A stretch of 64,000 nt of DNA from Ruditapes philippinarum (Eukaryota): positions 1 to 64,000 of the forward strand of contig NW_026856706.1 in NCBI RefSeq assembly GCF_026571515.1, read 5' to 3'. Every line of letters begins with the position of its first letter. Position 1 is the first letter of the stretch. Below the pieces are notes generated by a model that was given only the letters and a program-made list of their open reading frames with translations, was not told the origin of the DNA and did no database searches. A program made the position numbers and the translations under genes. Shown piece by piece: positions 28,468-50,046 of this stretch.

Positions 28468-29049
28468 TTTCAATTAACGATGTTAAACTTAATAATACAT
28501 ATATATCCAAGATTAACCTCCATCTAATGATATCACAATGCTCTTGTTTGTGCTTTGTATTTATGTTATTTACTTGTTTATGTTTACGAATGTATAACAT
28601 AATATTGTTCAACTCCTTGTAATGTAAGACAAACAAGAAAGTAGACCTAATTACTGCCCATTGCAAAAAGTAAAATTTAAGCATGATATATTTTTGCCGC
28701 TGTAAAATGACTTGCGATTAATAATGTTAATCTTTTAATATGACAAACAATATGTTAAGGTCGTAATTTGCAGTGAGAAACGGATTAAAGATAACAGATT
28801 ATGATTTAAGTTGATCTGTTTTCACCCGAGCAGTTTATATACCTTTCAGGAGCAAACACTTTCATTTTCATTTTGAAATTAACTGTGTGAGGAAACGGTT
28901 TTATCAAATTAAAGTTTGATCTCGTATTCCCTTGTGAAAGTACAAAAAAATCATTTTGATTAATTTGTGAATTTATATTATAAAAATAAATTATTATTAT
29001 TATCTGCAGTATTTGAGAAACAGATTTTGATAATATCTTAGTTTCTGGA

Positions 29050-30402
29050 ATGCTAGGAACAATGTCGTCTGCGGAGCTGCATGATTATGAAGTTATGTTT
29101 AAGAGGCACGTTCACGACAACCTCTTGTTGAACAATGACCTGAGATTAATGGACGATATGAAAAAAGCAAAGCTGAAGGAGCTGTCGAGGGATAGAGATT
29201 TATTCAAAGCAAAATTTTCGAAATTTCACAAATTGAACTCAAAGCGGCACATGCCCGAAGGACACTATACCAGAAATGCTACACCCAAAGCTTCACACAA
29301 ACCGTCTTTCATTGTTTGTAAAAACTCTCCATGCTCACTAAAGTCTTGGAATAATTTGACAGATTTAACAAAAGAGAAGGTCGATGTTTATAAAACAGAA
29401 GTTTTACAAAGTGACGAGGCAGCAGTGTCATTCCGGCGGAAAAACAAGGACAGTAATTCAAATGCAGACAAAAATTCGATGCAAAGGAAAATAAGTGCTC
29501 TTCCAGACAGGATGCCAAACGGTTTACAATTATGCAGAAGTCAAACAACGCTATCTAAATCTACTGATCTAAGCGAACAAAAGTCCAACTTGGACACAGA
29601 TGATTTCCATCTTCCAGACTTCCGCCGGCGTTCTTCAACTATGCCAAGTTACTGTTTCAGGACGAAATTAAATCTAGGAAACAAAAGATCAAGCCCAGTA
29701 CTGGAAAATAAACCACAATGTGACGTCAATGAATCAAAATGCATTGAAACGTCCACAAAATATAATAACACTCAAAATGCAGATGAACAAAAGAACAAAA
29801 ATGAGTTAGGCAAATCAATACCATGTGTACTAATATCTGATCATAGCAACGAAAATATTGCTAAAGCAACAGACAAAGGGTTAAATGTAACATTTGACCT
29901 TACCGACGACAAAAGTGTTCATGAAGAAATTGAAAGACGGACAGCATTTCCAAAAATTGATAAAAAGTTTCAGAGGGCAAAATCAATGATTATATCTGAT
30001 AATCAGTTACCGGTATCTGCAAATTCTCCAGAAACTTTCCGTAGACGGAGCATGACAGTTGCCTCCATCCGACAAGATAACGTAGATGACCAATTATCTT
30101 TACCGCAGACGTTCCGTAGACGGAGCATGACAGTTGACTATTCCGGGTCACCCATCATACGAAAACTCTTAAACAAGAGAGTAAGCATAGATAAATTCAA
30201 TTTGACGGCGAGAAGACAAAGTTTGTTTGACAAACTCGTAACTGCTTCAATGTCTTCGAGTGAAGATGTTTCAGATTTGGAATATTCGAAATCTGTAGAA
30301 GATTTAGAGGCATGTAGATATCTCAGGAAGCCTGGACAGAATATCCATGGCAGCAAAGAGGAGTTGGATTTAGATGTTATATTTAAACAGGACAGTGAGT
30401 GA
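29050..30402 (+). CDS. 450-aa uncharacterised protein, probably CCDC190-like (N-terminal coiled coil, disordered Ser/Arg-rich middle, C-terminal CRYLR...ELDLDVIF motif)
   Basis: Uninterrupted 1353-nt ORF in very AT-rich DNA. An acceptor (ttatctgcag, ending 29009) just upstream suggests a 5' UTR intron. The terminal motifs resemble CCDC190 from memory only and were not searched. Confidence 0.8.
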   Translation: MLGTMSSAELHDYEVMFKRHVHDNLLLNNDLRLMDDMKKAKLKELSRDRDLFKAKFSKFHKLNSKRHMPEGHYTRNATPKASHKPSFIVCKNSPCSLKSWNNLTDLTKEKVDVYKTEVLQSDEAAVSFRRKNKDSNSNADKNSMQRKISALPDRMPNGLQLCRSQTTLSKSTDLSEQKSNLDTDDFHLPDFRRRSSTMPSYCFRTKLNLGNKRSSPVLENKPQCDVNESKCIETSTKYNNTQNADEQKNKNELGKSIPCVLISDHSNENIAKATDKGLNVTFDLTDDKSVHEEIERRTAFPKIDKKFQRAKSMIISDNQLPVSANSPETFRRRSMTVASIRQDNVDDQLSLPQTFRRRSMTVDYSGSPIIRKLLNKRVSIDKFNLTARRQSLFDKLVTASMSSSEDVSDLEYSKSVEDLEACRYLRKPGQNIHGSKEELDLDVIFKQDSE

Positions 30403-30652: not shown

Positions 30653-33600
30653 TCATCTTGACATCTTTTTGACAAATTCTGAAACAAACAATAAAAATGA
30701 TTTGATATCTTTGTATTTAAACTGAAAACAAAAATCCGTCAGCTATGTTTGTTATTCTGAAGAACTTGTATTATAATAGCCATTGCTATGAGTACACGTA
30801 CATGTTTTACTACATGCATGTAATTTACTGTTGTAAAAAACAATATCATACATGTGCTTTTGTTTTCCTGTAAGAATAAAGATTTCCCCGCAAATTCAAT
30901 TTGCCAGTACTATTATCAACATTAGTCTCTTAACTGGGTGTTTTTTTTATATTTATCATGTATTGGCCATTCCAAAATGGAAGGCATCCAGTTTTAATTT
31001 CAAAATTCGCATTTTTATTTGCAAAAACTCCGATTCAAGACAGACAAAATTTACAAGAGTAGAAATTTCTAGTTTCATAAATCCAACAATTGTAAATCTA
31101 TTTCACCACTTGAAATAAAAATGATATGAATTACATGTAATGTATCTAAATCTTCGGAAAGTTTAGAAACATGGTATGTTGCTATTTGAACTTGTTTCAA
31201 TATAACATAATCATGTCAGTTTCAAAAGCGAAGGTTGAATAATACCACATATTCAAGCATATGTGTGCTCTTTTGAGTTCAGCTTAAGGTCTTTATAGCT
31301 AATGCATATTATTGTGATGCATATTATCGTAATTCAATACCAGCAGATTTGTTTCACCTTTTTACTACCAATATTCTACTTATTGGCAAAATACTAATAG
31401 CAAGTGATTTAAGATGTAACATTCGAAATGGAGCACAATGCTTTCCTTAGCTTACCAACATAATTGATTTGTCCTCGCCCGAGTCTATCCCCTTGTCGGA
31501 TTAATTCCTCGATTTCTTTCATGTTCAGTTTTTCCCCAAGACTTGTTAGTACATGTCGCAACTGAAGTGTACTCACAAATCCGTTATTATCATAGTCAAA
31601 CACTCTGAAAAACATTTTTATATACATAACCAGTGTTGAACACACATGGAATTATTACATTACAGTAACACCCTTTCTTAAAACGCAAATCTATGTACAA
31701 TTTTAGGGAAAAAACTATAAATAAAAGTACATATAAATTTATTGACTTTTTATGTTCAAAAATCTGGAAAGAGAGTGTTCCCTCGGAAGCTAACACTTTT
31801 GGAAACTTATTCAGTATATACTCGTACTTATACAAAAACAGCCATCGAACGCATGAGAAAACATACATTTATTTGACCTTCTGAAACAAGATTAAGGAGC
31901 ATATATAATTAATTATTTTATATAGTCTTGCACTCTCGGGCACATGTTTATTGTTCAATATTTCTTAAAACTGTCGGACACTTGCAGTCGGCAATTTTTG
32001 AACACATTCGATATAGTAAAGTGTGATTGTTACATTTTAAAGTTAATCTTTAAATACCTGAATGCGTCAATAAGTTCTTTCTGCGTTTCTGGTGCCTTTA
32101 CTTTTCTTACCATCATTGTCAAGAACTCAGGAAACTCTATTGTTCCACTTTCTGTAAGATATAATTACTTTAGTTTTATGACCCGTTTATTCGTTTGTTT
32201 TAATTTTAGTGGGGACAGATTTTAAGGTACTCAAGTCATGACAATGTATATACCAGCGAGCGTCTACCTACATTTTATCAATAATTAGCGACCAGGAAAA
32301 TCTTTTTGCTCTAATTATTACAGACTTCGAATAAAGCATACGGTGCAGTCAAGACTTGAACTTGCAAATCTGAAGTCCACTGTCCTTGTGCTCTCCCTAC
32401 AGATCGGATGATTTTTGCTCTCGTATAACTTGACACTGTACACACTATACTTATTGCATATCATTGCTCGCTTTCAATGTTTCACAAAACTCGTTTCATA
32501 ATACTTTCCTAGAGTACATCTCGTGTATGACCTAATTATACAGACAAGTTTAGTAAAACATTTCATTGCATCAAATAACATGTCAAACATTATGATGAGT
32601 AAATGGGTTGGACAACAAATTCTTGCAACATTAGATTTAGCTCTTCACAGACAAGGAACTGTAACATTCAACCCAGAATAAAGACTTTTAGGTAAAAATA
32701 ATCTATTCAAACACACGGAGCGAAAAAGGAAAACCATAAACAAAATCATTAGATGTAAAAGAGAATAAAAAAGGAGAGATGAAAAAGGTAAGAATTGATC
32801 AGTTGAAATGTGCAGTTTTCAATGATTTTATTTCTTTATCCTAATGATGGAGATATTTGTCGAATAAATTCAAAATAGGCTGGGCCATTCTTTAATTGGA
32901 AGTCATTTATGAAAATAAACATGATCAACGTAAACATGTTATGTCATTTCATCTGCCAGAATAACAATTTTTTAGTAAATATGTTTACTCCTTTACAACA
33001 AGAACATTACCAATGAGCAAACTATGTTAAGATTAATAAACATGCTTCGATGAACTATTTGATAAATTGGTATTAGATCAAGATTGACCTTTCAAAAGAT
33101 AATCCTGACCTAGATTACTAGGTCAGTATTAGTAATACATATATAGTCTTATATTTTACGGTTGAAATATGAAAAAATAATTTGATGTGACATGAGATTC
33201 AGTTTTTAACAATTAGATAATCCTTTTGGAAGATATTTGTTACAAAAATGTACACGGCAACAATGGTCCATGTATTGACCTTCAATTAATGGCCATTAAC
33301 TTATCAAATGTTGTCATTGAAAACGAGCTGTCATTTAAATAGTAAATGTCCCAGAAAATGGATTTGCAGGAAAAAAGAATTAAAACATGCATCCTTCGCG
33401 TGATAGAAAATTCTTTTTTGGATAATATTTTAAGAAAAGCATTAAATGTTCAACCTCAACCTCTTTATGAAGTAAGCTCCTTAGCCATTTTCTTTTAGCG
33501 AAAATTAAATAGCAAATTTTATCATACATTTTCTTATTTAAATCATCATCAGATTATCTTATTCTCGCCTAATTTAGGTTAATTTATTGCAAATGTAGAG

Positions 33601-35283
33601 ATGAAATCACATTACCCATGTTAACATTGGTAATTTTTATAAATCATATTTTTGTTTTGTTTCCAAGTATAAAATGTCACATTATGTTTATAACATAAAT
33701 ACATAAGTCAAATGCAACCCACTTCTCAAAGGGGAAACATGGTCTTTGACTTTGAAATCTTCAAACCACTGGTAAAGGCCCATCTTGCGGTGAAAGCAGA
33801 TAATAAAATTTCTCTAAATGCTAACATCCTCCGAGCTGGACACACCAAAATTCGCTTTTTGGCACCAAAACAAAACCTCGGCATTGAACCGACAATGACA
33901 GACGAAATGTCAAATGTAGGCTCAACCTTGCCGTTATCTCCCTATGTCCCACTTTTTGAACGGGTGTTCAATTGTCTGTTGCATAAACGGCAACAAAATG
34001 GAACAATAACTATAACAGTACTTCGAAAAAATACTCATTTAAGCCCTTGATCACATACCGTCATCATCTACCTCACGGATCATGTCCCTAAGTTCCTCAT
34101 CTGATGGATTTTTGCCTAGAGAACGTAACACAACCTTCAAGTCATCTACTGTAATACTACCAAGACCCTCGCGGTCGAACAGACCAAACGCTTCCTGAAA
34201 GTCTGCAAAAAAGCAAATGGCGATACAAAAAGGGAAACAACGATTGATAACTTGGCTTTTCATAATGTTAAAAGGTATCTATGTATTACTTTTTTATGAT
34301 CAGGTACAATGTATTTCACAGTCTTACTTTTAATAATGTTAATAGATATAAACTTATTGACCATGCATAATATAGATGTTTTATAGCAATTTAGCCTGAT
34401 TGTCGACGGTAATAGGTAATAAGTTTTGACTTGTTTCTCTTTGGGAGCTTCAAGTTAAACATACATTTCTAAAGGCTATAATTGAGTTGCATGTTGTCTT
34501 GCCATCGGAAGAAAATAGCCAAAGAGCGATCACTGTACTTGTATACGGATACGTTTTGTCCAGAGCAAAATGACACTTTAAGATTTATACTTTAAAACGT
34601 TTTTGCTTTGAAGTTGAGAATAAAATATTACAGTCGGTAATTAGAAAATTTTAAAGCAATCTTTACCTTCGACCTCTTCCTGCGACAGATGAAGATCTCC
34701 GGCTCCAACTTCGTACTAAAATCATTGAAGAGAAAATAATCATAAAGTACTCTTTTTGTCTTATACCCAGCAATAAATCAATAAAAGAAAAACAGTTAAA
34801 GATATACTATGCTAAAATTTGATATTTGAAAATATTGATAATTGCTACACAGTCTCTTTGTAAACATGAAATAAACATGTTTTGACTTCACACAAAGTAG
34901 ATACGTTAGACTTTAATCATACACAATATAGATGGTCACAATATGAATATACAGTGTCATTAAAAAAACTGGCAGTTTTTTAAGAAAGGACCACCTTTAC
35001 TTGACCCGTGGTAAGGATCATAGATTCCCATTCATAGTTTGTACACTATTTTATTCAAATGTACACTATTTTATTCAAATAACACATATTCAGTAAGAAT
35101 TTTATAGATTTCAATAAATTTCTGCGCTTAAAATATTTCACTCAAAGATGAGCATAATATATTTCGCTGACATGACTAAGATATTGATAAATTACAATTA
35201 ATACTAAATAATCTTTTTCATATTTTTAAAATATTTTTTTCTTTTAGAAATACAAGCAAAAGATAAACACATACCATAGACAT
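30653..35283 (-). CDS. Calmodulin-like protein A (156 aa, 6 coding exons, divergent EF-hands)
   Basis: Exons: 35283-35275 MSM, 34715-34667 [16 protein letters not shown], 34202-34059 [21 protein letters not shown].., 32151-32058 [21 protein letters not shown], 31604-31456 [32 protein letters not shown], 30678-30653 EFVKKMSR*. Total 471 nt; GT-AG introns with consistent phases. Confidence 0.9.
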
Positions 35284-35624
35284 GATTGTTTCAGTTGAAC
35301 AGAAGTCTGATAATGTTTATATGATATTTAATGTTTGTAAGATATTGTGTACTCGACTTTACTAAATCCGCATTGTTTTTCAGGTTAAGGCGTTAATTAT
35401 AATCATCTATTGATATAGATTAATCATCAATATTAACAGACGCGTTGGTATCATATTACATTTTAGTCAATAGAAGGGGTAAAAAATATGTATTAAACCT
35501 ACGGTATATAATATGGATATAAGGAATATCATTGTTTACCCCTGTGAAATACCATATATATCTCTTAAACGCACAAATTGTGGTATTTTTACTTCATACA
35601 AAAAAATGCTAAACTGTATTATAC

Positions 35625-35997
35625 TTGTATCATAGTTTGGGGACCTTTCTGTTGAAAATGTGTCAGAGTTAAATCGTATACATATACATGCACAGTGCGT
35701 TAACTGGAGTGCAGGTATTAGTTACCCGCACTCCAGAGCATGCCCGTTGATTGGCTCATTTTTGCTGGGTTTTACTTATTAGGGAAAGCGACAGAAATAT
35801 CATATTCAGATGCTCGTTCATTGGTTACTTTTTCCCGGGGTTTCATATTGTGACAACAGGGAACGTGTTTTTATGTTTGACTATGATACAAAAGAGAAAG
35901 AACATCAAAACACTCGGCAATCTGATTAATACTCGGGGGCTACGCCCCCTCGTACAAATCAGATAGCCTCGTGGTTCGATGCTCTTTCTATTACTAA
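35625..35997 (-). mobile_element. ~370-bp hairpin-ended non-autonomous element, copy 1
   Basis: Reverse complement of 36367-36731. It has a terminal imperfect hairpin centred on gggggc-tac-gccccc and a 12-bp internal inverted repeat ttgtatcatagt/actatgatacaa. Confidence 0.8.
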
Positions 35998-36366
35998 ATG
36001 CCACAATGCAAAAGAAGTAAATGAAGGTTCAGCTATATAATTGTTTGAAATCTGTAATAATGCACCGAAAATAATGATGATTAAAGACATAACAATAACT
36101 CCACTTTTTTTAGGTTAACGGGCCTTTGTTTGCTATAATTATTGCGCAGGGGTTTAACAGGTTTATACATCTACGACATAAGTACATTGTACTGCCATTT
36201 TAGAGCAACCATTTTAAAATTTCTAACCTTTATGTTAATTTGGAAACTTTTACATAAGTAAGAATTTATGTTTTGTATTATTTAGGCACTTTTTCTATTC
36301 AAAACACCCAGTTTACAAGCTTTACAGTTTATCTCCAATCTCTCGAACTGCTGACTGTCCAAATTA

Positions 36367-36731
36367 TTAGTAATAGAAAGAGCATCGAAACACGAGGCTA
36401 TCTGATTTGTACGAGGGGGCGTAGCCCCCGAGTATTAATCAGATTGCCGAGTGTTTTGATGTTCTTTCTCTTTTGTATCATAGTCATGTCACAATATGAA
36501 ACCCCGGGAAAAAGTAACCAATGAACGAGCATCTGAATATGATATTTTTGTCGCTTTCCCTTTCTCTTCCGTCAAAATAAGTAAACCCCAGCAAAAATGA
36601 GCCAATCAATGGACATGCTCTGGAGTGCGGGTAACTAATACCTGCACTCCTGTTAAGGCACTGTGCATGTATATGTATACGATTTAACTCTGACACATTT
36701 TCAACAGAAAGGTCCCCAAACTATGATACAA
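36367..36731 (+). mobile_element. ~365-bp hairpin-ended non-autonomous element, copy 2 (inverted relative to copy 1)
   Basis: Near-identical to 35625-35997 on the opposite strand; each copy has a private deletion. Confidence 0.8.
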
Positions 36732-37134
36732 TTTTACTTTGATGTCTCATTTCCATATCCGGTGTATAGTATGACAATTTACTTAAATCGTGGTCAGTGA
36801 ATTACAGTGTATTTGATGGCTTCTTAATTATTGTAACTTATATTAAATACTTTCTATTCAGATAACTGAAACTAACCAGTTCCGAGTCCTATAAGCAAAC
36901 ATGGTTCTTTCTCAAACAGGACTTGAACCCAAAATCAACAATGGGTTTAGAGACAGGTACCTATGAGGCAAGCACGTATATGACAAGCACTTTTAGGCAG
37001 GCATAAAGAGGTAAACACTTATGCAAATGATAAATGAATGATTTAAAATACATGTAATCGGAGCAATTTGAAGGATCTAGATATATTTAATTCATATTTA
37101 ATGTATATTTTATGTTTTAATATTTATCCTTTTA

Positions 37135-37375
37135 AAATGGCAATAATCTACTTTATGCGTACATGACATAGCAAGTAGCTAAATAAATAAATTCAGGTTT
37201 TTTTATAAAAAATTTCCAATTTTGTTAACCTATAAATAAATTGACAAAATCCTTATAAATGGCAATAATGTACTTTATGCGTACATGACATAGCAAGTAG
37301 CTAAATAAATAAATTCAGGTTTATTTAAAAAAAAACTTCTCCAATTTTGTTAACCTATAAATAAATTGACAAATC
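37135..37375. repeat. ~122-bp tandem duplication downstream of CaML-B
   Basis: aaatggcaataat.tactttatgcgtacatgacatagcaagtagctaaataaataaattcagg at ~37135 and ~37257. Confidence 0.8.
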
Positions 37376-37779
37376 ATATAATTTAGAATAACAAATTATG
37401 TTTCGCTTTTTCAATTGACAAATTCAATAAGCTTATAGCTTTCAATATCGAACTAAAATAAAGCAGTATAAACTAATAAACAAATAAGTAACAAAATACA
37501 TGTATGTAAATATATTTTAACACGACAAACAAACGTTGCCGCTGTGATGCAATAAAAGAAACAAAGGTCAAAGAAACAACAAAAAACGAACTTTTTTTAA
37601 TAGTTTACTGATCATGACAATAGTGTTCATAAATATCAAAATGTATGATATAATGGGATTGTAAAATAATGAAAGACATTTGAAGACAGAGGCCATCAAT
37701 TGCTGTTACAGCACATATTCGGAAACATGGAAATGTGTAAGTATCCTTCGCTTTTATCGTTAATTAATATCCTACCAAA

Positions 37780-39767
37780 CTATCTTCTAACACCACTTGA
37801 CGCTAACATCATGTTTACAAATTCTGGAAACAAATAAGAAAAAATAAAAATAAAACACAGTGGTAAAAAAATAGCTAGTTACTACTAGTTACTACGTATA
37901 TGTAGACTACATGTTTAGTGTAAGACCGGTTTTTTGTTTGTTTTATTTCTAAAATTTATATCAAGTCGGCCACTTATAGTCTAAATGAATATCAAAAGTA
38001 AAGTGCCATAATCATGCTAACGTATTGAGCTTAATGTTTCCATTATATATATATATATTTTTTTTTTGGTTAATGTTTACGTACCACCAAACAGTCAAAC
38101 ATAATAGTCATGCTTAACTGGTGGTACATTATTTCAGGCACTTACGGTTCCAAGATGTCAAATCGTAAATGAATATAACATAAAATTATAACTTAACACT
38201 TACCATCATAATCTATTTCACCATCATTGTTAACATCTGCTTCTCGCATCATCTCGTCCACTTCCTCATCTGTGAGTTTTTCTCCGAGATTTGTCATCAC
38301 GTGACGTAATTCTCCGGCACTTATTTTTCCTGAACCGTCTTTGTCAAAAACTCTAAATGCTGCTTTTAAATCTTCATCCGAATCATTATCACGCATGTGT
38401 CGCACCATCATAGTTAAGAATTCTGGGAATTCAACAGTTCCGCTTCCTGTAACAAACTGATCAGGTTTACTTCCGGATATGCAATTCATTCTTTCTCCGT
38501 CTTATAAATAAACATAATTTTAACACTCATGTTATAATTGTCAAACCAATTAACTTGAAAGAAATCATAGTGAAATAAGACATGGACACAGAGACACGGA
38601 TTCTATTTCCTATTATAGCATGTAACCTTACGTTCAGTGCAACAAAGAAATTACCGGAATGCAAAATGTTAAGTACTGTTTTGTTATAGCCCGATGAAAA
38701 GATTTGGGATAGTAATTAATAATTATGAAGGAATCTTTCTATGTTAAACATATATACATATATGTTGGAATGTCAAAGACCTCTTACCGTCTGCATCAAC
38801 TTCATTGATCATATCCTGTAGTTGAGCCTCGGTTGGGTTTGACCCCAGTGACCTCATCACAGTGCCTAGCTCTGTTGATGTTATGGTACCATCGCCATCT
38901 TTATCAAACAAACTAAACGCCTCTTTAAACTCTGCAAAATATTCACCTTATTTGTTAATACAATGTATACTAGTACATGCATACCCTTTGTTTAAACAAT
39001 ATGCAATATTTTATGAGAAATCAAACCTTTGCTGCAGGCGACTTCCACATACAAACCATGTGAAAAACATCTCTTGCTGGAAATTAATGTTTTATCTCCA
39101 TAATTAAAAGTCTAAAAAAATTACAATAGAGAAAATCTACAAAAAAGAACACAGGTCAATTTATAAAAATATTTGTTTGAAAACAAGATGAATAAAAACC
39201 TTTAACTTGTTGGCAATGAATTATGTATTTTAAAACAATAAAGTTTGTGACTTTAAAAGAATGGCTTTTTAGTAAACAATCTATTGTGAGATAGGACCAG
39301 ACGATAAATGCTATATATGGATGTTAATCTATTAATTTAGAGATAAAATAACAGCCATCATCAAATCTACATATTAATTTCCATTACCTGCAATTTGTTC
39401 ATCTGTTAATTGTGTTTCCTGTAAATGAAATAAATAAAAGGGAAATGACGTATATGCACTTTGTTTAGTTTTTGTAATCAAACTCTGCGTTATCTTTCCA
39501 AATCAGGGAATAGAGCCAGGCTAGCCTTTATATAAACGCCTCTAGATTCGATGGATTTTATACAGTTTGGTGTTCTATTTTATATCTAACTACTAATAAA
39601 AAAACAAGAACAAGAAATGGAAAGTTCATAATGCAATATCTATGAATATGCAATAAAATTACCATTTACACCTCGACTGGTAAACAACAACAGAAAAAAG
39701 TAATATAATATAAAAAATACTTAAAATATCTAACAATATCGAAAACAAACGTCAAAAAGCTTACCAT
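37780..39767 (-). CDS. Calmodulin-like protein B (154 aa, near-canonical calmodulin with 4 intact EF loops and a short C-terminal extension)
   Basis: Exons: 39767-39765 ATG, 39418-39388 [10 protein letters not shown], 38931-38788 [23 protein letters not shown].., 38446-38204 [25 protein letters not shown], 37823-37780 [14 protein letters not shown]. The 3/31/144-nt first exons are the classic calmodulin pattern. Roughly 75-80% identical to canonical animal calmodulin by hand count. Confidence 0.93.
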
Positions 39768-40119
39768 ATTTCTTCTTACTGATTACATAAAATGAATTTA
39801 TAAATGAATATGTATGTTATCCTAATGCACAGTCTTCGTTAAACAACCATGTTAAAACTTGTAACATCTATAAACAAATACCTAACATCATAGTACTGAA
39901 ATATAATATTGAAATGTTGAAATGATCATTAAAAATTATTCAAACTGCGACAGTGCCGCATTGCGGCATATGTTTTTTTCAAAAGCGCGCATTATATACA
40001 GAATAGATTAATATTGGTACCGTATTTTAAAGCTTCAAAATTTGATACTATCATTAATTGTTTTAGAACAATGGGTCAATATTATAAGGGGTATACTGTT
40101 TTGAAGATTTCATCTAATC

Positions 40120-40127
40120 TATAAAAG
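40120..40127 (+). promoter_or_regulatory. Candidate TATA box (TATAAAAG) for CaML-C
   Basis: Consensus TATAAAAG lies ~75 nt upstream of the inferred ATG at 40202. The AT-rich background lowers its specificity. Confidence 0.35.
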
Positions 40128-40201
40128 AGTATGTACTAATGGTCGGGTAGTTTATGAATTTATAAACTTTAAAAAGCTAATGGAGATATGTAAAAAATAA
40201 A

Positions 40202-43200
40202 ATGGTAAGAACTTATATTATTTTTTATTTCAACTATGTTTTGTCATGTTAAAATTTATAAGTGTTCATGTTTTAAAATCAGTTTAAATGTTCTTGCAAA
40301 TTTGCTTTAAATATGACAATAAAGATTAACATAGGAGAGAACCGTTCACGAAAATAGTTTGGAAGACAAATGTCAAGCAACATAAATGTACAAATTTACT
40401 TAGTTTGAAAACAATCAATATATTCATGAGAACAGAAATCAAGTTATTTTCAGGATATCTGAACTGTTATTGATTGTTATCGGCTGAATATAGTAGATAA
40501 ATATTTTAAACAATATTTATAATTTATATAGATATAATATTGATTCACAAATAAGCAAGGCATTTGTATGGTGGCTGATTTCCGCCATCTCATGCGTCCG
40601 TGTCTTAGCCCCTCAAATGAGACACGAATACACGGTTATATGCTCGTTTATCGAGTTTTTACCTTCGACTTTTGAGGGGCGAAGACACGAAGATATTTCC
40701 CTTGTACATTGGCGAAATATTAGTATTAAAATTCGGAAATTCAGCTAGATTAGGAACGTCTGTGGTTCTACTCAGGTGTCTGTGCACGTTTATAATAAAG
40801 TTTGAAGGCTGTATGTAAGTGTTGGNNNNNNNNNNNNNNNNNNNNNNNNNNNNNNNNNNNNNNNNNNNNNNNNNNNNNNNNNNNNNNNNNNNNNNNNNNN
40901 NNNNNNNNNNNNNNNNNNNNNNNNNNNNNNNNNNNNNNNNNNNNNNNNNNNNNNNNNNNNNNNNNNNNNNNNNNTAATATGAAAAACTATGCTATTTTAA
41001 CAGTGTTTAATTGTTTACAGTCTGACGTGTTTACAGAAGAGCAGCTTGAAGGTAAACAATAAATTTTAATGTTCAAAATACAAGAATTTAAAAAGCCACA
41101 ATGCGCGCAGATAATGTAGAATTTAAATACATTATGTATTGTGATTCACAGATGCATCGCAGATTTCCGAAGTCAGTGATTATATTGCAATATATAAGAT
41201 TTGTCTTAGCGTGTTTGACTATGGTGTTAGATTATTTGTCAAAGAAGTCACGTCAGGTAAACTTACGAAAAAGCAGACGAATATTTCTTGTGTGAGTGAT
41301 ACATTATGTTTTCCATTGTTTAAATATATGAGCCGCGTCATGACAAAACCAGCATAATTGGTTTGCGACCAGCATGGATCCAGACCAGCCTGCGCATCCG
41401 CGCAGTCTGATCAGGATCCTTGCTGTTCGCTTACCAACCTATGACAAGTAGTGAAACTGATAGCAAACAGCATGGATCCTGATTAGACTGCGCGGATGCG
41501 CAGGCTGGTCTGGATCCATGCTGGTCGCAAACCCATTATGTTGGTTTTGTCGTGACACGACTCATATGGGTGTGTAACTTTCAGAGTTCAAGGAGACGTT
41601 CAGCTTGTTTGACAAAGAAGGAGATGGTTCTATATCAATAAAGGAACTTGGTACCGTCCTCAGAGCTTTGGGGCAACATCCAACCGAGGCTGACCTTAAT
41701 GACCTCATCGGTAATCTAGAGGTTGAAGGTCAGTTTCTATTTCTTATTTCATTTCCATTTGTGAAAGGACTCAAAGGAGTGATATTTATTTCAAAAATAC
41801 TACATTTGAAAAATGTAGCAATTTCACATAAAAGTACAGTACTTAGTATTAGGATCTGAGTTTGAAATGGGAAAAAGTAATATTTATTTAGAAATATTTA
41901 GAAATAATATTACAATCTATATAACAAATACTGCCTAGTTCATATTGCAAACTCCTTATACATTAAAATTATAATAAACTTACACATTAATTGTGAATGT
42001 CCGGACATATATAGTAACACTTTTATAGTGATCCTGAAATTATATGAGCCGTGTCACGACAAAACCAACATAGTGGGTTTGCGACCAGCATGGATCCAGA
42101 TCCGCGCAGTCTGATCAGGATCCATGCTGTTCGCTTACAAACCCTATAACAAGTAGAGAAACTGATAGCGAACAGCATGGATCCTGATCAGACTGCGCGG
42201 ATGCGCAGGCTGGTCTGGATCCATGCTGGTCGCAAACCTATTATTTTGGTTTTGTCGTGACGCGGCTCATATTGCTTTTGACACCACCTGTATCTTGTAT
42301 ATAATACTTCAGGACACATGACCATTGAGTTTCCAGAGTTTTTGAGTATCCTGGCGAAAATCATCAAAGATACCGATCCAGAGACCGAACTTACCGAAGC
42401 TTTCAAGGTATGATAATAAGGTCAAAAAGATGTTTTTGTTTTTTGTGTGTTTTTCAATATTGTATGTCACCCCATTGCAATGCCAAATGAAATATGAACG
42501 TTGCAAATTTAATAACATTCATAGGGCTACTTACTTTGTCAAAGAGATATTGGTGATATTTCAAATTGCAAAATTATATGTACAGATTATAAATAAAAAT
42601 CGTAAATGCCAAGTTTTAAGAACAACTTCTGCAGTTTCTTGTTAATCGATAACATTTGAAGAAAAATGTCTAGAATGCGGTTTTCATGTGTATAGTTACC
42701 ACTACAATGTATATGGTATTTCATGCCATTTGCACAATTTTCAAGACCTTCGAGATTTAAGTCAAATCGAACCTCGACGCTTATGACTTTACAATTTTAC
42801 TGCATCTTGGAGTAAAATGAAAGCCACGGATAGGAATGAGAAGAAAATCGTAATAGCAACTTATAGGGAACATTCGTACACTAACGAAGACTAAGTAGAA
42901 CATTTGTTTTCCAGAATGCATAGCAGAAAACATTATCAATCTCATAAACAGAATTGCAACATAAAAATCCATTCCCGGTGTTAAGCCATGCGAGGAAATA
43001 CATATTTCATTGTTTCCAGTAATTGGTGTCTTTTCGTTATCAGTGCCAGCCTTTTTGCATGAGCACACAGTCCCAGAATGCATTAGCACCAAATGTTCGT
43101 TATTATGTGTAGATCCTGCGCTAAATATGTGCGGTTTGTACTCGCGTTTATGATTATTGTGATTTTATTCTCGACAATTGGTACAATAATGTTTCATATT

Positions 43201-44015
43201 GTAGCTGATACCTTAAACAAGTTGGATTCAATAGTTGCTCACAAATCAAGCGTTTGAAAACGTCATGGGGAATTCATTTGGCTTAGTGAGACAGGCCATC
43301 AATTAAGACCTGCATTGTGGGAAAATCCCTTAATTTTGCCCATTCAACGTAAATAACATCAAATTACTGTTTCAGATTTTCGACAAAGAAAACACGGGCA
43401 ACATCTCTAACGCCGACTTACGGCGAATTATGACGACGTATGGCGAGGTGTTGAATGACGAAGAGATAGAAGAGATGATCAAAGAAGCCGACACCGACGG
43501 CGACGGCATTGTCGATTATGCTGGTATGATTTACCGTTCTTACTCACTGACTTCAGTTTGTATCACCCCCTTTACGAAATTTATAAGGCGTAGAAATAAC
43601 ACGTTGTGCAAATTGATTCATTTTAAGGAACGAGTTTCATTACGAAAAAGACATTTATGGGATAAAGTGAGAAATTACCTTACAAATTTGGCATCTCTAT
43701 TAACAATGAATATTCATTGGTAGTAAAAAGAACATAAAACAAATTCTGTAAAAGTACTGTACTGTTAAACTTGAGCTATAACTACTCTGAGCAGACATTG
43801 TTTCTTTTCTAAAACACTGCTTTTACCTTTACGTTTTACTCTTGAATAAACACCACTCTTAGAAAAAGACCATATTTTAACACCCCGATAATATTTAAGT
43901 TCCAAAGCATTACGTAAGTAAGTAATAAAAGTAATGTTTTTTTTCTCCATAGACTTGACTTTATTTTCAAATGTTTTATTTTTCAGAGTTTATCTCCATG
44001 GTGATACAACCTTAA
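40202..44015 (+). CDS. Calmodulin-like protein C (149 aa, 6 coding exons)
   Basis: Exons: 40202-40204 ATG (aaaATG|gtaaga), 41021-41051 [10 protein letters not shown], 41585-41728 [21 protein letters not shown].., 42313-42407 [20 protein letters not shown], 43376-43523 [25 protein letters not shown], 43987-44015 EFISMVIQP*. Total 450 nt; AATAAA at 44095. The ATG exon is the least certain because an N gap lies in intron 1. Confidence 0.9.
40826..40974. other. Assembly gap (149 N)
   Basis: Run of N in CaML-C intron 1. Confidence 0.99.
41326..41567. mobile_element. Palindromic MITE copy 2, in CaML-C intron 2
   Basis: Same sequence as 575-808, bounded by ATATGAG..CTCATAT. It ends 17 nt before the exon 3 start. 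Confidence 0.88.
42042..42272. mobile_element. Palindromic MITE copy 3, in CaML-C intron 3
   Basis: Same family with a small deletion in the left arm; bounded by ATATGAG..CTCATAT. Confidence 0.88.
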
Positions 44016-45552
44016 AACGTCACAACTGGTCATTGCAGAGGTCAAAATTCTTCATTTATGGTGTTCTTTCGGTGTTCTTGTATTTTGTGTTGTGAATAAA
44101 TAATTAGAAAAACATTATAGAATATTGTGTTTCATAATACATGTATTTTCTTTCCTCTCAATTGTTGTCGTCTAGACTGTTGCACAGTTATCTCTCTACA
44201 TTGTTGATAAAATGAGTCCGGAAGTTTTAAGATTTCAAGTGCTATAGGTGAAACAGACTTTCCTATGCTACCAGTATAAAGTCAGATCGGCCTGCAAGCT
44301 CGTTTAGTACGATCGGACATTATAGACTGCCTTTTGCTTACAATAAACAATTGACAGATCCGATTTCAATCCAGGGCAAATCCATTATACATGTTAAGCC
44401 ATGCAAAGGTTAATAACCTCGTACAAGCATTGAAGACTACATATATACCCGCAGTTCTCATAAAGGAAATATATTGCCTTGCACGACAAGGCACATACCA
44501 TCATACCAAATGTATTTTTGGCAAACCTGCGTTCCGGACAAGGGAATTTAGCTAATCACCTAAACAGGCAGACGGCAGGGATGTACGTGCACTATGTCTG
44601 CCTGTGAAACACTCGACCAGATTTTAACCAATAGCAGTAAGAGCTATCAGAACTATCAGGCCAATATCATAGAGGTATAATGGGTCTTCACCGAGGTATT
44701 TTGACCTGACAGGACTTTTTTTGACATTTGATGTAGGACTGAAACTTATGTGCATAATTTCGGACAAAGAATAGCACAAAATACGATTTTTTTTTTCAAT
44801 TTATTTCCGAGTATATTTCCTAATTATCTCTTGCATATCTTCCTTTTTAAGTTGATCTTTGTAGGAAATTATATTATTTTTGACCTCAGTGGAGTTCCTT
44901 TGAACTTAATGTCCTTGAATAAAAATAAAAAAAGATTCAAATTAAAGAGGAAATAAGTGCATTCTTCAAATGTAAGAGGAAAAAGAAGATATTTTATGCT
45001 TTTAATTTTTATTATAAAATTACAGCTAGTCCCATTTTACTCCGAACACAAAACCTCTGTAAGTAGTGATATATAAACATTCTTCTATAAAAAAGGAACC
45101 CAAATCGCTTACATATAATTATAATAAAACAAAACACAACTCTGTATCTATCACATTCAAAATAGTGTCATATAGTAAAAAAAACATAGATTCTTTGTTG
45201 GTCATTGTTCTGATTATGTTCTTGGTCAGCTTATTCTTTATTTTGTAAGATCTTATTTTGGCGGGAAAAAATTAGGTATAAAAAGTATCCAAGTTCCTAA
45301 CTCACATTTTTCTATTATGCCTATAAACAAAGTGTAATGCGTAGAAAAACTAGCAGATCTAAGAAAACTTTCATTTCATAAAGTAGTTTCATGATATCTT
45401 ATATACTATCAAAATTCTTTTCTATAAATAAAAATATACAATAACAATGAACAATAAAGCTTTTCCAGACGTTTTTGCAAGCGTTTATGACACACAGTAT
45501 ATATTTATGGAATGGTGATGCCTCATTTTTTTGTTTCCCTCTGTTCGCCTCT

Positions 45553-48500
45553 TCAGTACAGGCACTGGATGGTGCGTACCATTTCTATAAATGGAAAAAG
45601 TAAGGATATAGTAAATAATATTTCCTTTAAAAATTAAAAAGAAAAAAATGGCATCAACAAAAGAATCAAAATTCAAAGAATATGAGCTTCATTTAGTTTC
45701 AGTATCTCACTACCAACAATGTATCATCGATTTACAGACAACAAAAACCCGCTCCACTCCTCCAACACAGTGATTCTCCCCAAAAAAGGACACCAAGAAT
45801 TATAATTGCAACAAAGAAACTTTTTAGGTAGTATTATCTCCCTTTTAACACGAGTGTGCCTCTAAATGCCCCCATACCAATAAATTGTAATAACGGATAT
45901 TAAATCAACTCAATTCTGACAAAACCTCTGGTAAATCTAACATCATATTAAATAACACATTATACGCCAGGGGGAGTTTTATTTTGGCGATCGTTAAACT
46001 AAATTAAGTCCGTACCATAACGATTATTTGGATGAAACATTCCAGGAAGAAATAACTGAAAGTACGTGATCGTGCGTGCCATAAAACAATTATGTCACAT
46101 CTTAATTCATGAGAGATATTAAATGTTCCATAGTGATATTCAGCGTTCATATAAGATTTCACGCTAAACGACACTTGTGTATGTCAAATAAATGTAGTCA
46201 ATTTCAAGATTTTCTTCTTAATATGACAATTTTGTATATGTTAAAGAAGATTAAAACTATAGATGATTTCGTTCATCAACAAAGTACATGTATTGTTTAT
46301 TTTTGACATTTCTTAATAAACTTTGTAAGAATTTTTTAAAGTAAACAGTTCATAGTTCATAATGCGATTTGATGGGAAAAGCTTCCTTTTTAAGACAAAT
46401 TTTATTAAATATAGAACAAAAAAGAATAGTTTTAAAACCGTTTTAGATAATGATCAATATCATAAAATATATAAATACAAATTGCAGACTTTTTTTCGCA
46501 GAAGTGAAAAAATTACCTTCAAAGTTAAATTGGTTATCTCCACTGATTTCTACATCTCGCAACATCTCGTCCACTTGGTCGTCTTTTAGCTTTTCTCCGA
46601 GATGTACAAGCACGTGACGGATTTCCTTGACATCAACATATCCATTACCGTCTTTGTCAAAAATACTGAAAGCCTCCTTCAAGTTTTCTTCTGTCTCAAA
46701 TGGCGGGGCTTTTGTGGCAATTATTGTCTGTATTTCATTTAATGAGAAAAGACGCTCTCCTGGAAAAAAAATCATATCTAAATTTAGAACAAGGATACCG
46801 GAAGTGCTTGAAAACATACAATTACTAAAAACGATTTTCTATCAGTAGTTGACACCAACTTTACGTTTTTGTTTATATAACATTATATCAGTAGCCTTTG
46901 AAAACATACTTCACGGACGGAGTGCATTTCCTGTCAACCGAAATTTTAACGTGTCGAACTGGAAATCAAAGGATATCTAAAGTCCGCCAGGGCAAGCTGT
47001 TGTTTCAACGATCAAGAAAACTTAACGTGTCACCTACTTGTTTTTTTCCAGGAACAGACTCGAAATTGTGTCTGTAAGCTTACAGCTCCCTAAATTAAAT
47101 GAAAATCTTTATAAACTAAACTGGCCGCTGCTGAACCAAAGAGTAAAAAGGATACCGGAAACACAATACTGTTAATCACAAGTACAGTGGAAACAATTGC
47201 AATTGGAATTTACTGCTGCATGACTGATGCATTGTGCTCCTGCATATTGAGTTATTAACACCGAGTGTACATATATAATATGTCTGTTCCCGTGACGACG
47301 AAAAAGATCTTAAGGCTAATATGCACTTAATATATAAATCTTGCAATTTTTATACATGTTTCAACTCTTCCTAATTTCATTTTCCTGAAAATACCATGAT
47401 TGATCATGTGAAAATCAAGGGTTGCATGTAAAAAATGTTTAAAAAACTTACTATCTCCGAGCATACTATTCAGTTCCTCATTGGTTGGACTAAGGGCTAT
47501 ACTCCTGATGACACATGTAGCCTGTTCTCTAGTGACTTTGCCATCTCCGTCACTGTCGTATATGATAAATGCTTCCTTCAATTCTACAACAAATATAGAA
47601 TAAACATTCAGTTGTGCTTCGATTTAATAAAGTGTTTAATAATGATGACAAGCAAATGCAAAACTGACAGTGGCTCAGTTAGATATAAAGGGTCAATATT
47701 GTCACATTCAAAGTAGAGGAACACTTAATCCTATTTACCTATGTTAATTTCATTGCATGTGAAATTACTACAGACACTTTTAGGGATTCAGGTGTTGTTC
47801 TTTTTTTTAAAAACACACTTTTTCCTTCATGATATTATAATTACAATGTATTACTAAATCATGTCGGGCCGGGTCTTTAAAGCAAGTTTTACATATTGCT
47901 TAATTTTTTTTCTCAAATGTTTTATTTGGGGTGAATGGTAAATGTCAAACAAGAACAGATGTCAGAACTCGGTTTTTAAAGAAGACATTTATGACCTATG
48001 TTATAAAAACAGTATGGCTGTTTCTGATACGGATGAATTATTAATGGTGGCAAGCAATCTGATTAAACCAACTTTTTGTAACCAAGACAACAGATTTCTC
48101 CGCATTTTTAACCTTAAATTATATAAATTGCTGAATTTGCTGAACATACAGTATATATTATCGATTTTGGGTAACCAACATAAGCCTTGTCAGACGACAC
48201 AGATGTGCAGGCTGGCCTTGATCTATACTTGTGACAAACCCGTTCCACAGCAAGGTACGGTTAAAAATTACTAAATGACAAATCAATAAGTCTCTTATAT
48301 GTCAAAATAAGTTTACAAATCAAACAGTTGTGTCAATTTCGATTTCCACTTTAACAGTTCTGGAATATAACGAGAAAATTTGCATTTACAGACGTAAATT
48401 ATTATGATTTGAAATATCTTATCATTGGATGCTTGAATACCTCAAATTTGCAATGACCGTCTTGCAAAACGTTGTCTACATATGAAATTGAGCGAAGAAC

Positions 48501-50046
48501 AAAACAAACTTCAAATAGTGTTTATCATAAATGCAGCACTTTAAAATCATGTTTATTTAGTATACTTTTTTTAAATAAGATAATTGGGCAACATGATACA
48601 TTATTCTAAATAATTAAATTCTTTGCTAAAGGTAGAAAACCTGTTTCAATCATAATTGTATAGGTATTTGAAAAGTTGTTAACTACAATGTATTTCTTAT
48701 CTCAAAGAAATGCACTATGTGTCAATAAACAAACAGGCTATACAAACATGAAGTGGTGAATAAACTGTTAGGATTGGTTAATCAAAATATTTCTTCCTGA
48801 TAAACTCCATATCGCCATACATGTATCCTTATTTAATCAATCTCTTGAACGCGTTGACATTTAAATGTCATACATAACTGTTCTATATCCTTATAGCAGG
48901 TCACTAGGATAACTTGCGTGGCTTACTAGATTTCCAAGTTGGGACCAAGAATCTGGATCGAACCAAGTGTGTTGTATACATGTATATGTATGGTTATATG
49001 TAGCTGCCCTCTGTATATCAATTGAGTGATATAGGCAACCAATTATAGTCGAGATTTAATTACATCATTTTCTCTTCAAGTATTTGAAATTATGGTCTTT
49101 CTAAATTAAAGACTATATATATGTGTGTAATGGATTTGATCATCTACTGGTCCATTATAAACTTAGCAGAGCTCAGCAGCTGGGGTTCGAACACGAAAAA
49201 AGCATTAAATGATCAATCTTACATCACTGCCCCCTACCTCGAAATCATGTTGTTTGATGTACAGGGGTATTTTTTGTTTAAAAAAAGGTACTGCAGTGAA
49301 AAAAAAATATTGATAATATAATTAAATTACCTTCCTGTTGTTTTGCGTTCAGTTTAACNNNNNNNNNNNNNNNNNNNNNNNNNNNNNNNNNNNNNNNNNN
49401 NNNNNNNNNNNNNNNNNNNNNNNNNNNNNNNNNNNNNNNNNNNNNNNNNNNNNNNNNNNNNNNNNNNNNNNNNNNNNNNNNNNNNNNNNNNNNNNNNNNN
49501 NGACTGTAGTTTTGAACAAAACATCGACTAATCAACTTGATATTTCAGAAGATTGCGTGTCGGTTTGTATAGTCTTAAGATATCATATATTTTTTCGGTT
49601 CAATATATTTTGTATCAATCAAAACTGACATACGGATTCGAAAATGTTGTTTATTTTCTTGAATTTGACATATTGTGAAATAATGTATCAGTAAGACTGT
49701 AAGAGCACCCCATATGCGGCCTCAATTTGTAAAGAATGCAACACAGATTGTAAGAAGTATACCAGTTATCGACCAAAATTTCCGCCATATAAAACATTCA
49801 AATTTGTATATTTCTAGATAATATCCATGTAAATATATACTATATATAGATTTTAAATATTTGAATTCTTTACTCAACTCAATAGATTCAACAAACAATA
49901 AAATGATACCTGTATAATAAAGGGAAGACAATCCCGAATATGTAAACAAGACACACCTGTTTAGCTTATTTTCAATTTCTTTAAACTTTAGAGAAGTATT
50001 TTGATTAAAATATGTTATATTTATATATAATAATGCTACATACCAT
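45553..50046 (-). CDS. Calmodulin-like protein D (~146 aa, most divergent; EF2 loop shortened by 4 aa)
   Basis: Exons: 50046-50044 ATG (alternative ATG|GTAAGT at 50919-50917), exon 2 ending at 49331 (..VKLNAKQQE, broken by the N gap), 47583-47452 [21 protein letters not shown].., 46759-46517 [40 protein letters not shown], 45584-45553 [10 protein letters not shown]. Confidence 0.82.
49359..49501. other. Assembly gap (143 N)
   Basis: Run of N abutting or interrupting CaML-D exon 2. Confidence 0.99.

What the first reader, a model, noticed from the sequence alone, without database searches (positions are those of the whole stretch)
30653..50046. Four-gene calmodulin-like cluster in which each divergent paralog keeps a different best Ca2+ loop (possible EF-hand code)
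Seen: the spliced 12-residue loops are as follows. [13 protein letters not shown] / [12 protein letters not shown] / [12 protein letters not shown] / [12 protein letters not shown] (all canonical). [13 protein letters not shown] / [12 protein letters not shown] / [12 protein letters not shown] / [12 protein letters not shown] (only EF2 canonical). [13 protein letters not shown] / [12 protein letters not shown] / [12 protein letters not shown] / [12 protein letters not shown] (EF4 canonical, EF1 near-canonical, EF3 with D12). [13 protein letters not shown] / EF2 loop shortened by 4 aa / [12 protein letters not shown] / [12 protein letters not shown] (only EF3 canonical). Established: ligands at loop positions 1, 3, 5 and a Glu at 12 are needed for high-affinity Ca2+ binding; E12Q cripples a site, and E12D reduces Ca2+-over-Mg2+ selectivity. 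Inference: all four reading frames and splice sites look intact despite deep divergence. This suggests a maintained, subfunctionalised set of sensors (EF2-, EF3-, EF1/4- and all-site versions), possibly for shell, cilia or sperm Ca2+ signalling, rather than decaying duplicates. This is my best candidate for an undescribed system in the window.
Basis: partly seen in the sequence, partly recalled or inferred. Interest (0 to 1): 0.72.

Follow-up and report, generated by a model that had tools for sequence, protein, structure and literature searches.

The report
Conserved clam calmodulin-like gene cluster
Four intact calmodulin-like genes sit together in the Manila clam, with close counterparts in other clams; three have lost most calcium-binding loops and likely work as dedicated partner subunits, a known pattern, and the proposed one-loop-per-gene calcium code does not hold across species for one of the three.

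Summary
Four intact GT-AG genes (A, B, C, D) match RefSeq Ruditapes philippinarum calmodulin-like proteins, and the loops read as stated. They are not decaying: Mercenaria orthologs are 77-95% identical, C and D have adjacent-accession orthologs in four other clams, and A is spliced in 2 of 4 runs laid. The 'EF-hand code' is only partly supported. C keeps EF4 in 7 of 7 orthologs and A keeps EF2 in 2 of 2. D keeps EF3 in only 3 of 7, and two D orthologs have no canonical loop. Three different loops arise by chance 37.5% of the time, and loop loss is common in this genome's large calmodulin family. Best reading: independently specialised, probably tissue-restricted calmodulin-like subunits tethered to their own targets (IQ-type light-chain mode), with one residual site in A and C and none required in D; B is a four-site sensor. 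Precedents are androcam and Arabidopsis CML13/14. My paper searches found no description of this cluster; the scan's notes had only a loosely similar Naegleria pair.

The parts
30653..35283 (-). Gene A, calmodulin-like, 156 aa; coding exons 35275-35283, 34667-34715, 34059-34202, 32058-32151, 31456-31604, 30653-30678; only EF2 canonical (split by the intron, 34068 to 32126); extra phase-2 intron just before the EF3 loop
   Evidence: = XP_060592819; junctions between coding exons 2-6 seen in runs X1 and X4; Mercenaria ortholog 91% over 156 aa; no closer paralog than 56% for the exon searched
37780..39767 (-). Gene B, calmodulin-like, 154 aa; exons 39765-39767, 39388-39418, 38788-38931, 38204-38446, 37780-37823; four canonical loops; 79% identical to the calmodulin reference used
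   Evidence: = XP_060592820; Mercenaria ortholog is the first half of the fused model XP_045158262
40202..44015 (+). Gene C, calmodulin-like, 149 aa; exons 40202-40204, 41021-41051, 41585-41728, 42313-42407, 43376-43523, 43987-44015; only EF4 canonical (43490 to 43988); head-to-head with B, inferred start codons 435 bp apart; extra phase-0 intron one base from A's
   Evidence: = XP_060592824; orthologs in Mercenaria, Mya, Mactra, Dreissena 85-95%; no closer paralog than 60% for the exon searched
45553..50046 (-). Gene D, calmodulin-like, 149 aa; exons 50044-50046, (start under N) to 49331, 47452-47583, 46517-46759, 45553-45584; EF2 loop 4 aa short; EF3 (46658-46623) canonical here but not conserved; tail-to-tail with C
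   Evidence: = XP_060592821; orthologs 61-85%; no closer paralog than 46% for the exon searched

Best explanation
This is a cluster of four intact calmodulin-derived genes, shared at least in part with other clams, whose products likely act as dedicated subunits: B is predicted to be a four-site calcium sensor, while A, C and D would stay bound to their own targets largely without calcium, in the way myosin light chains hold IQ motifs. Inferred mechanism: after duplication each copy specialised on a partner, lost most of the methionine-rich surface that calmodulin opens on calcium binding, and kept the C-lobe surface used by calcium-free calmodulin. A would keep one working site in the N-lobe (EF2) and C one in the C-lobe (EF4); each may tune an already bound partner. 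D would need no particular site. The different surviving loops are then by-products of separate specialisation, not a code read together. Shown: gene structures, orthologs, loop patterns, splicing of A. Inferred: synteny beyond the window (from accession order), calcium binding, partners, tissue.
For: Each gene is its own clade with a long stem and short tips: A, C and D stems are 0.81, 0.35 and 1.21 changes per column, support 99-100 (quick tree), i.e. divergence followed by constraint. Dead loops are conserved too: A's EF1, EF3 and EF4 are 92-100% identical to Mercenaria; Glu3 of C EF1 and Gln12 of D EF1 occur in 7 of 7 orthologs. Methionines drop from 10 in the calmodulin reference to 7 (A), 5 (C) and 4 (D), versus 11 in B. 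C-lobe positions Ala88, Phe89, Gly113 and Glu114 are kept in every A, C and D row, and Glu120 in all but D of Ruditapes (the roles of these positions are recalled, not tested). The Phe/Leu/Met/Met hydrophobic tetrad (recalled) is intact only in the lobe with the live loop for A (N) and C (C), and in neither lobe of D. Precedent: Arabidopsis CML13/14, about 50% identical to calmodulin, with one predicted working EF-hand and gaps in EF2, are calcium-independent myosin light chains (PMC11272076, abstract and passages); androcam is a testis light chain of myosin VI (PMC4914028 passages). The top row for the D model is a chain of a muscle-myosin structure, 2os8_C (Z 10.1, rmsd 5.0, 142 aligned, 28% identity; that it is the light chain is my reading), tied with other EF-hand chains. 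A's exons are covered in 2 of 4 runs and have almost no reads in two raw RNA runs of which 1.1 and 1.9 billion letters were read, which fits restricted expression.
Against: No partner, tissue or calcium measurement is available. The fold matches are tied and rest on models from 8-9 sequences (pTM 0.65 and 0.50). The C model's top row is a troponin C (Z 13.2, rmsd 10.8), so folds do not discriminate. C's EF4 ligands are invariant in 7 of 7, which also fits a true sensor role. Loop sequence can mislead: the degenerate EF1 of scallop essential light chain binds calcium once bound to myosin (PMC4914028). A and B orthologs are known from one other species only. The two runs that show A spliced are contig runs whose RNA status is a guess by the tool. 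The tetrad pattern was noticed after the fact in three genes.
Confidence: 0.5

Rival explanations
1. Lobe-complementary sensor set (a corrected form of the first reader's idea): A senses through the N-lobe, C through the C-lobe, B through both and D through neither; the four are co-expressed and act on the same target or pathway.
For: The live loop and the intact hydrophobic tetrad coincide in A (N-lobe) and C (C-lobe). C's EF4 is canonical in 7 of 7 and A's EF2 in 2 of 2. The cluster appears to be kept together (accession order). B and C are head-to-head. Runs X1 and X4, picked for holding 30-35% of the words of the C/D stretch, also hold spliced A.
Against: Three genes, pattern seen post hoc. 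No shared target is shown. Possible unionid orthologs of C (support 82) have EF3 and EF4 canonical, so C's pattern may have changed over time.
Confidence: 0.17
2. EF-hand code as first proposed: each paralog is a free sensor defined by one particular retained loop (EF2, EF3, EF1/4, all).
For: The pattern exists in this species and is conserved for A and C.
Against: D's EF3 is canonical in 3 of 7 orthologs; EF4 passes the PROSITE-type pattern in 3 of 7 (the strict rule in 1 of 7); two orthologs have no canonical loop. All-different has chance 0.375. Loop loss is common among divergent paralogs: EF1 dead in 6 of 29, EF2 8 of 27, EF3 18 of 28, EF4 8 of 33.
Confidence: 0.08
3. Ordinary calcium-dependent calmodulin-like relays with lowered affinity or magnesium-loaded sites, each with its own soluble targets and no tethering; clustering only reflects old tandem duplication.
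For: Plant CMLs show this kind of loop variation, and Asp12 shifts selectivity to Mg2+ (PMC5983762 section 2.1). The genome has other tandem calmodulin arrays (14 gene-like units rebuilt on contig C15641). Several 'dead' loops keep most acidic ligands (C EF1, A EF3, D EF1).
Against: Methionine loss and altered tetrads in A, C and D; D lacks any conserved canonical loop.
Confidence: 0.17
4. C is a troponin-C-like muscle regulator (invertebrate troponin C works through site IV; recalled, and seen here only as a reference title in PMC5963113).
For: EF4-only pattern in 7 of 7; the top structural row for the C model is a troponin C.
Against: C is 60% identical to calmodulin but 40% to the troponin C in 1a2x and 32% to fly troponin C F1. 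The best 60 of 269 PDB sequence hits for C's EF3-EF4 exon are all calmodulin or calmodulin fusions. No molluscan troponin C was compared directly.
Confidence: 0.05
5. Decaying duplicates with no function.
For: Loss of most calcium ligands.
Against: 77-95% identity to Mercenaria orthologs, intact frames in five species for C and D, spliced A with 3 of 3 coding variants synonymous.
Confidence: 0.02

Closest known systems
Calmodulin (149-aa reference P0128; PDB hits)
   Same: Four-EF-hand layout and length; best PDB sequence hits for D and for C's EF3-EF4 exon; identity B 79, C 60, A 56, D 45%; same exon boundaries as the near-identical calmodulin genes in this genome.
   Different: A, C and D have one canonical loop each and fewer methionines; D has a 4-residue EF2 deletion; A and C have an extra intron before the EF3 loop.
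Arabidopsis CML13/CML14, light chains of class VIII myosins (PMC11272076; abstract and passages read)
   Same: About 50% identity to calmodulin, one predicted working EF-hand, gapped EF2 (as in D).
   Different: Plant proteins with EF1 as the live site; IQ binding is shown for them and untested here; no orthology implied.
Drosophila androcam and its EF-hand gene cluster (PMC4914028 passages; Pavlik et al. 2006 seen only as a reference title in PMC3080363)
   Same: Tissue-restricted calmodulin-related protein with a non-canonical N-lobe, encoded in a cluster of EF-hand genes.
   Different: Androcam keeps two high-affinity C-lobe sites; C keeps one predicted site and A keeps its site in the N-lobe; independent origin assumed, not tested.
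Myosin essential and regulatory light chains (PMC4914028 passages and section 9 part 1)
   Same: Degenerate EF-hands; the D model aligns over full length to myosin-associated chains.
   Different: Only 28-35% identity to those chains versus 42-60% to calmodulin; A, C and D did not group with the one light-chain-like row in the tree (that row has a long branch).

Membership tests
Calmodulin-like proteins (CaM-related, EF-hands only) | EF-hand domains and no other domain | tested here: met
   Pfam hits above cut-off are EF-hand families in all four; only weak side hits otherwise
Calmodulin-like proteins (CaM-related, EF-hands only) | Calmodulin is the nearest characterised relative but identity is well below that of true calmodulins | tested here: met
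   45-79% to the reference; top PDB hits are calmodulin for D and for a C exon
Canonical calmodulin | Four canonical loops and near-identity to calmodulin | tested here: not met
   A, C and D have one canonical loop; B has four but only 79% identity, while 98-100% genes exist on other contigs
Myosin light chain / IQ-bound subunit (works-like claim) | Calcium-independent binding to an IQ motif | not testable with these tools
   No partner known; only residue retention and a tied fold match
Myosin essential or regulatory light chain family | Closer in sequence to light chains than to calmodulin | tested here: not met
   D 28-30% versus 42%; C 33-35% versus 60%
Troponin C (gene C) | Closer to troponin C than to calmodulin | tested here: inconclusive
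   40% and 32% to two non-molluscan troponin Cs versus 60% to calmodulin; no molluscan troponin C compared
   Met for C (7 of 7) and A (2 of 2), not for D (3 of 7)
   needs ITC or native mass spectrometry

The most novel reading that the evidence does not exclude
A clam-wide, co-regulated cassette supplies four lobe-complementary calmodulins (A: N-lobe switch, C: C-lobe switch, B: both, D: none) that load onto successive IQ motifs of one motor or axonemal complex, so that calcium bends the lever or beat machinery at defined positions in sperm or ciliated cells.
Probability: 0.1. Interest if true: 0.7.

Novelty: new member of a known kind. Interest (0 to 1): 0.3.

Why it matters
Bivalve 'calmodulin-like' genes are routinely cited in shell, stress and immune transcriptomes without orthology or loop analysis. 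Here three lineage-specific orthogroups (A, C, D), with no close paralog found in this genome, are defined; C and D are kept across venerid, mactrid and myid/dreissenid clams. That gives a small testable set for asking how calmodulin copies turn into dedicated subunits. It is not a new kind of calcium signalling on present evidence; it would matter much more if the four proteins proved to share one target.

Tried and rejected
dN/dS per EF-hand could not be computed: no ortholog DNA is available in these tools; protein identity and three coding variants were used instead. The search for more A orthologs found none, but one search scored only 4 candidates and (best 150 listed of 40,087 hits) returned generic calmodulins, so absence outside venerids is not shown. 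Tissue labels were not available. Atlas look-alikes for D and A were generic EF-hand clusters. Androcam and molluscan troponin C were not among the 50 rows shown in either fold search, which is not exclusion. The careful tree did not finish; the quick tree leaves the relationships among A, B, C and D unresolved, so common origin by local duplication is not shown. EF4 invariance in C as special evidence was weakened: 110 of 141 columns are invariant and other invariant runs of 12-18 exist. No further calmodulin-like exon was found in the 30 kb after the window. No complex prediction was run because no partner is known. Paper searches (listings only) showed no description of this cluster. PMC9803972 main text has no mention of calmodulin; its supplements were not opened and might list these genes. 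PMC5800059 lists one female-biased calmodulin-like unigene in freshwater mussels (passage), not mapped to these genes. Three androcam papers were not held. Subscription journals are largely outside the library, so prior description cannot be excluded.
Full report
Observation. I read window 30000-51000 and built four gene models by coordinates. All readable intron ends are GT-AG (one acceptor of D lies under N) and all frames are open. A and B lie in tandem on the minus strand, C is on the plus strand head-to-head with B, and D is on the minus strand tail-to-tail with C. Pairwise identities are 31-50%. The models equal RefSeq proteins of Ruditapes philippinarum named 'neo-calmodulin-like' (A, C) and 'calmodulin-A-like' (B, D).

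Genomic background. The window is the start of a 102,619-bp contig in a 1.41-Gb genome. One exon of B gave 109 matches among 150 scored of 242 candidates. I fetched 60 stretches around most of these (five contigs were left unfetched) and rebuilt gene-like units. I dropped 7 (five near-duplicates, one with a stop, one centrin-like) and kept 55. Of these, 34 are at most 66% identical to calmodulin and 23 of the 34 have all four loops callable (EF4 judged on positions 1, 3 and 5 only). Of the 23, 3 have one canonical loop, 5 have two, 11 three and 4 four; EF3 is dead in 18 of 28 callable cases. Loop loss is therefore routine in this family. One-site genes are a minority, so three of them side by side is somewhat unusual, with the caveats of survey bias and possible shared ancestry. 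Three different loops out of four has probability 0.375. Exon searches found no close paralog of A, C or D in the assembly.

Orthologs. D has orthologs in Mactra, Mercenaria, Mya and Dreissena and two unnamed proteins on ~1-kb contigs (61-85%). C has orthologs in the same four genera (85-95%) plus two unnamed ones (79-87%); I left out one apparently mis-spliced protein (P0019) and the extra isoforms of D. In each of the four species the C and D accessions are consecutive or nearly so and share the same longest-contig length, from which I infer adjacency. In Mercenaria a 315-aa model on a contig of that same length is a B ortholog followed by an A ortholog, the same order and strand as here. 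A and B were not found beyond Mercenaria, but those searches were weak. Two unionid proteins group with C at support 82 and have EF3 and EF4 canonical.

Test of the code. C keeps EF4 canonical in 7 of 7; EF1 has Glu at position 3 in 7 of 7, and EF2 and EF3 fail in 7 of 7. A keeps EF2 in 2 of 2, but its dead loops are equally conserved (92-100%). D fails: ligand position 5 of EF3 is Asn in 3 of 7 (Ruditapes, Mya, Dreissena) and Ala in 4 of 7 (Mercenaria, Mactra, two unnamed). EF4 passes the PROSITE-type pattern in 3 of 7, and two orthologs have no canonical loop. What is invariant in D's EF1 is a disabled site (Asp1, Asp3, Asp5, Gln12 in 7 of 7). Selection is thus on the proteins, including their non-canonical loops, not on one complementary loop each.

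Expression. Four runs from four studies were laid on gene A exons 2-6. Two contig runs (RNA by the tool's guess) join all four predicted junctions. Two raw RNA runs (4 and 6 in 100 of each run read) show almost no exon coverage. The three coding variants listed are synonymous. This shows splicing and suggests restricted expression; the tissue is unknown. Full-length 149-151-aa orthologs of C and D on contigs of 914-1155 bp must be spliced if their genes span several kilobases as here, which points to expression in relatives.

Mechanism. Methionine content falls in A, C and D but not B, and net charge is about half that of calmodulin in A and D. C-lobe residues that I recall as facing IQ motifs in calcium-free calmodulin are kept. 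The hydrophobic tetrad is intact only in the lobe carrying the live loop in A and C, and in neither lobe in D. I read this as tethered subunits with one residual regulatory site in A (N-lobe) and C (C-lobe), a structural D and a sensor B. Structure models give the expected two-lobed fold; their matches to myosin-associated chains, troponin C and calmodulin are tied or conformation-dependent and add little. All partner and calcium claims are inference.

Comparison with known systems. One-site calmodulin-like proteins that serve as calcium-independent light chains are documented for Arabidopsis CML13/14 (PMC11272076, abstract and passages). Androcam and several amoebal light chains are reviewed in PMC4914028 (passages and section 9 part 1); a Drosophila cluster of EF-hand genes is known to me here only from a reference title. 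The idea that loop differences diversify calmodulin-like paralogs is stated for plants in PMC5983762 (section 2.1 and passages). Five paper searches (listings only) showed nothing on this clam cluster. The scan's notes held nothing near this place and one loosely similar Naegleria pair.

Verdict. Real, conserved, already annotated genes; a new, apparently undescribed example of a known kind. Interest 0.3; the bolder lobe-complementary cassette reading has about 0.1 probability.

Noticed in passing
window 29017-30402 (+): A 461-codon open frame ends about 250 bp from gene A's stop, on the opposite strand; it has no Pfam hit and contains a short repeated basic, serine-containing stretch. Runs X1 and X4 cover the bin at its 3' end.
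   Followed up: partly
window 31604/32058 (gene A) and 42407/43376 (gene C): A and C each have an extra intron just before the EF3 loop, one base apart (phase 2 versus phase 0): intron sliding or separate gains. Several other paralogs in the genome are split at about the same place.
   Followed up: partly
window 39767-40202: B and C are head-to-head with inferred start codons 435 bp apart; a shared bidirectional promoter is possible.
   Followed up: no
window 35620-36736; 41322-41567; 42038-42272: A 1.1-kb element with long inverted arms between A and B, and two copies of a ~240-bp palindromic element in introns of C; probably miniature transposons.
   Followed up: partly
window 11858-12181 (-); 15571-16369 (-): An exon of a leucine-rich-repeat gene, and a broken reverse-transcriptase (retroelement) fragment.
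   Followed up: partly
G000:C15641 (1-22 kb, 309-368 kb, 500-511 kb): A much larger calmodulin array: 14 gene-like units from 46% to 98% identity to calmodulin, one with a stop in the EF1 exon.
   Followed up: partly
G000:C2180:11880-17297 and G000:C15641:327097-330178: Two other EF4-only calmodulin-like genes elsewhere in the genome; G000:C340:36262 is EF3-only.
   Followed up: partly
proteins P0031 and P0004: Database issues in relatives: the Mercenaria model XP_045158262 appears to fuse the B and A orthologs; the Mactra D ortholog is named as an elongation factor.
   Followed up: yes
window 41210-41256 (+): A 47-nt AG...GT-bounded stretch in intron 2 of C lies within a 44-nt, 70% inverted match to the start of A's EF3 exon; by eye it does not splice in frame, so probably chance.
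   Followed up: partly
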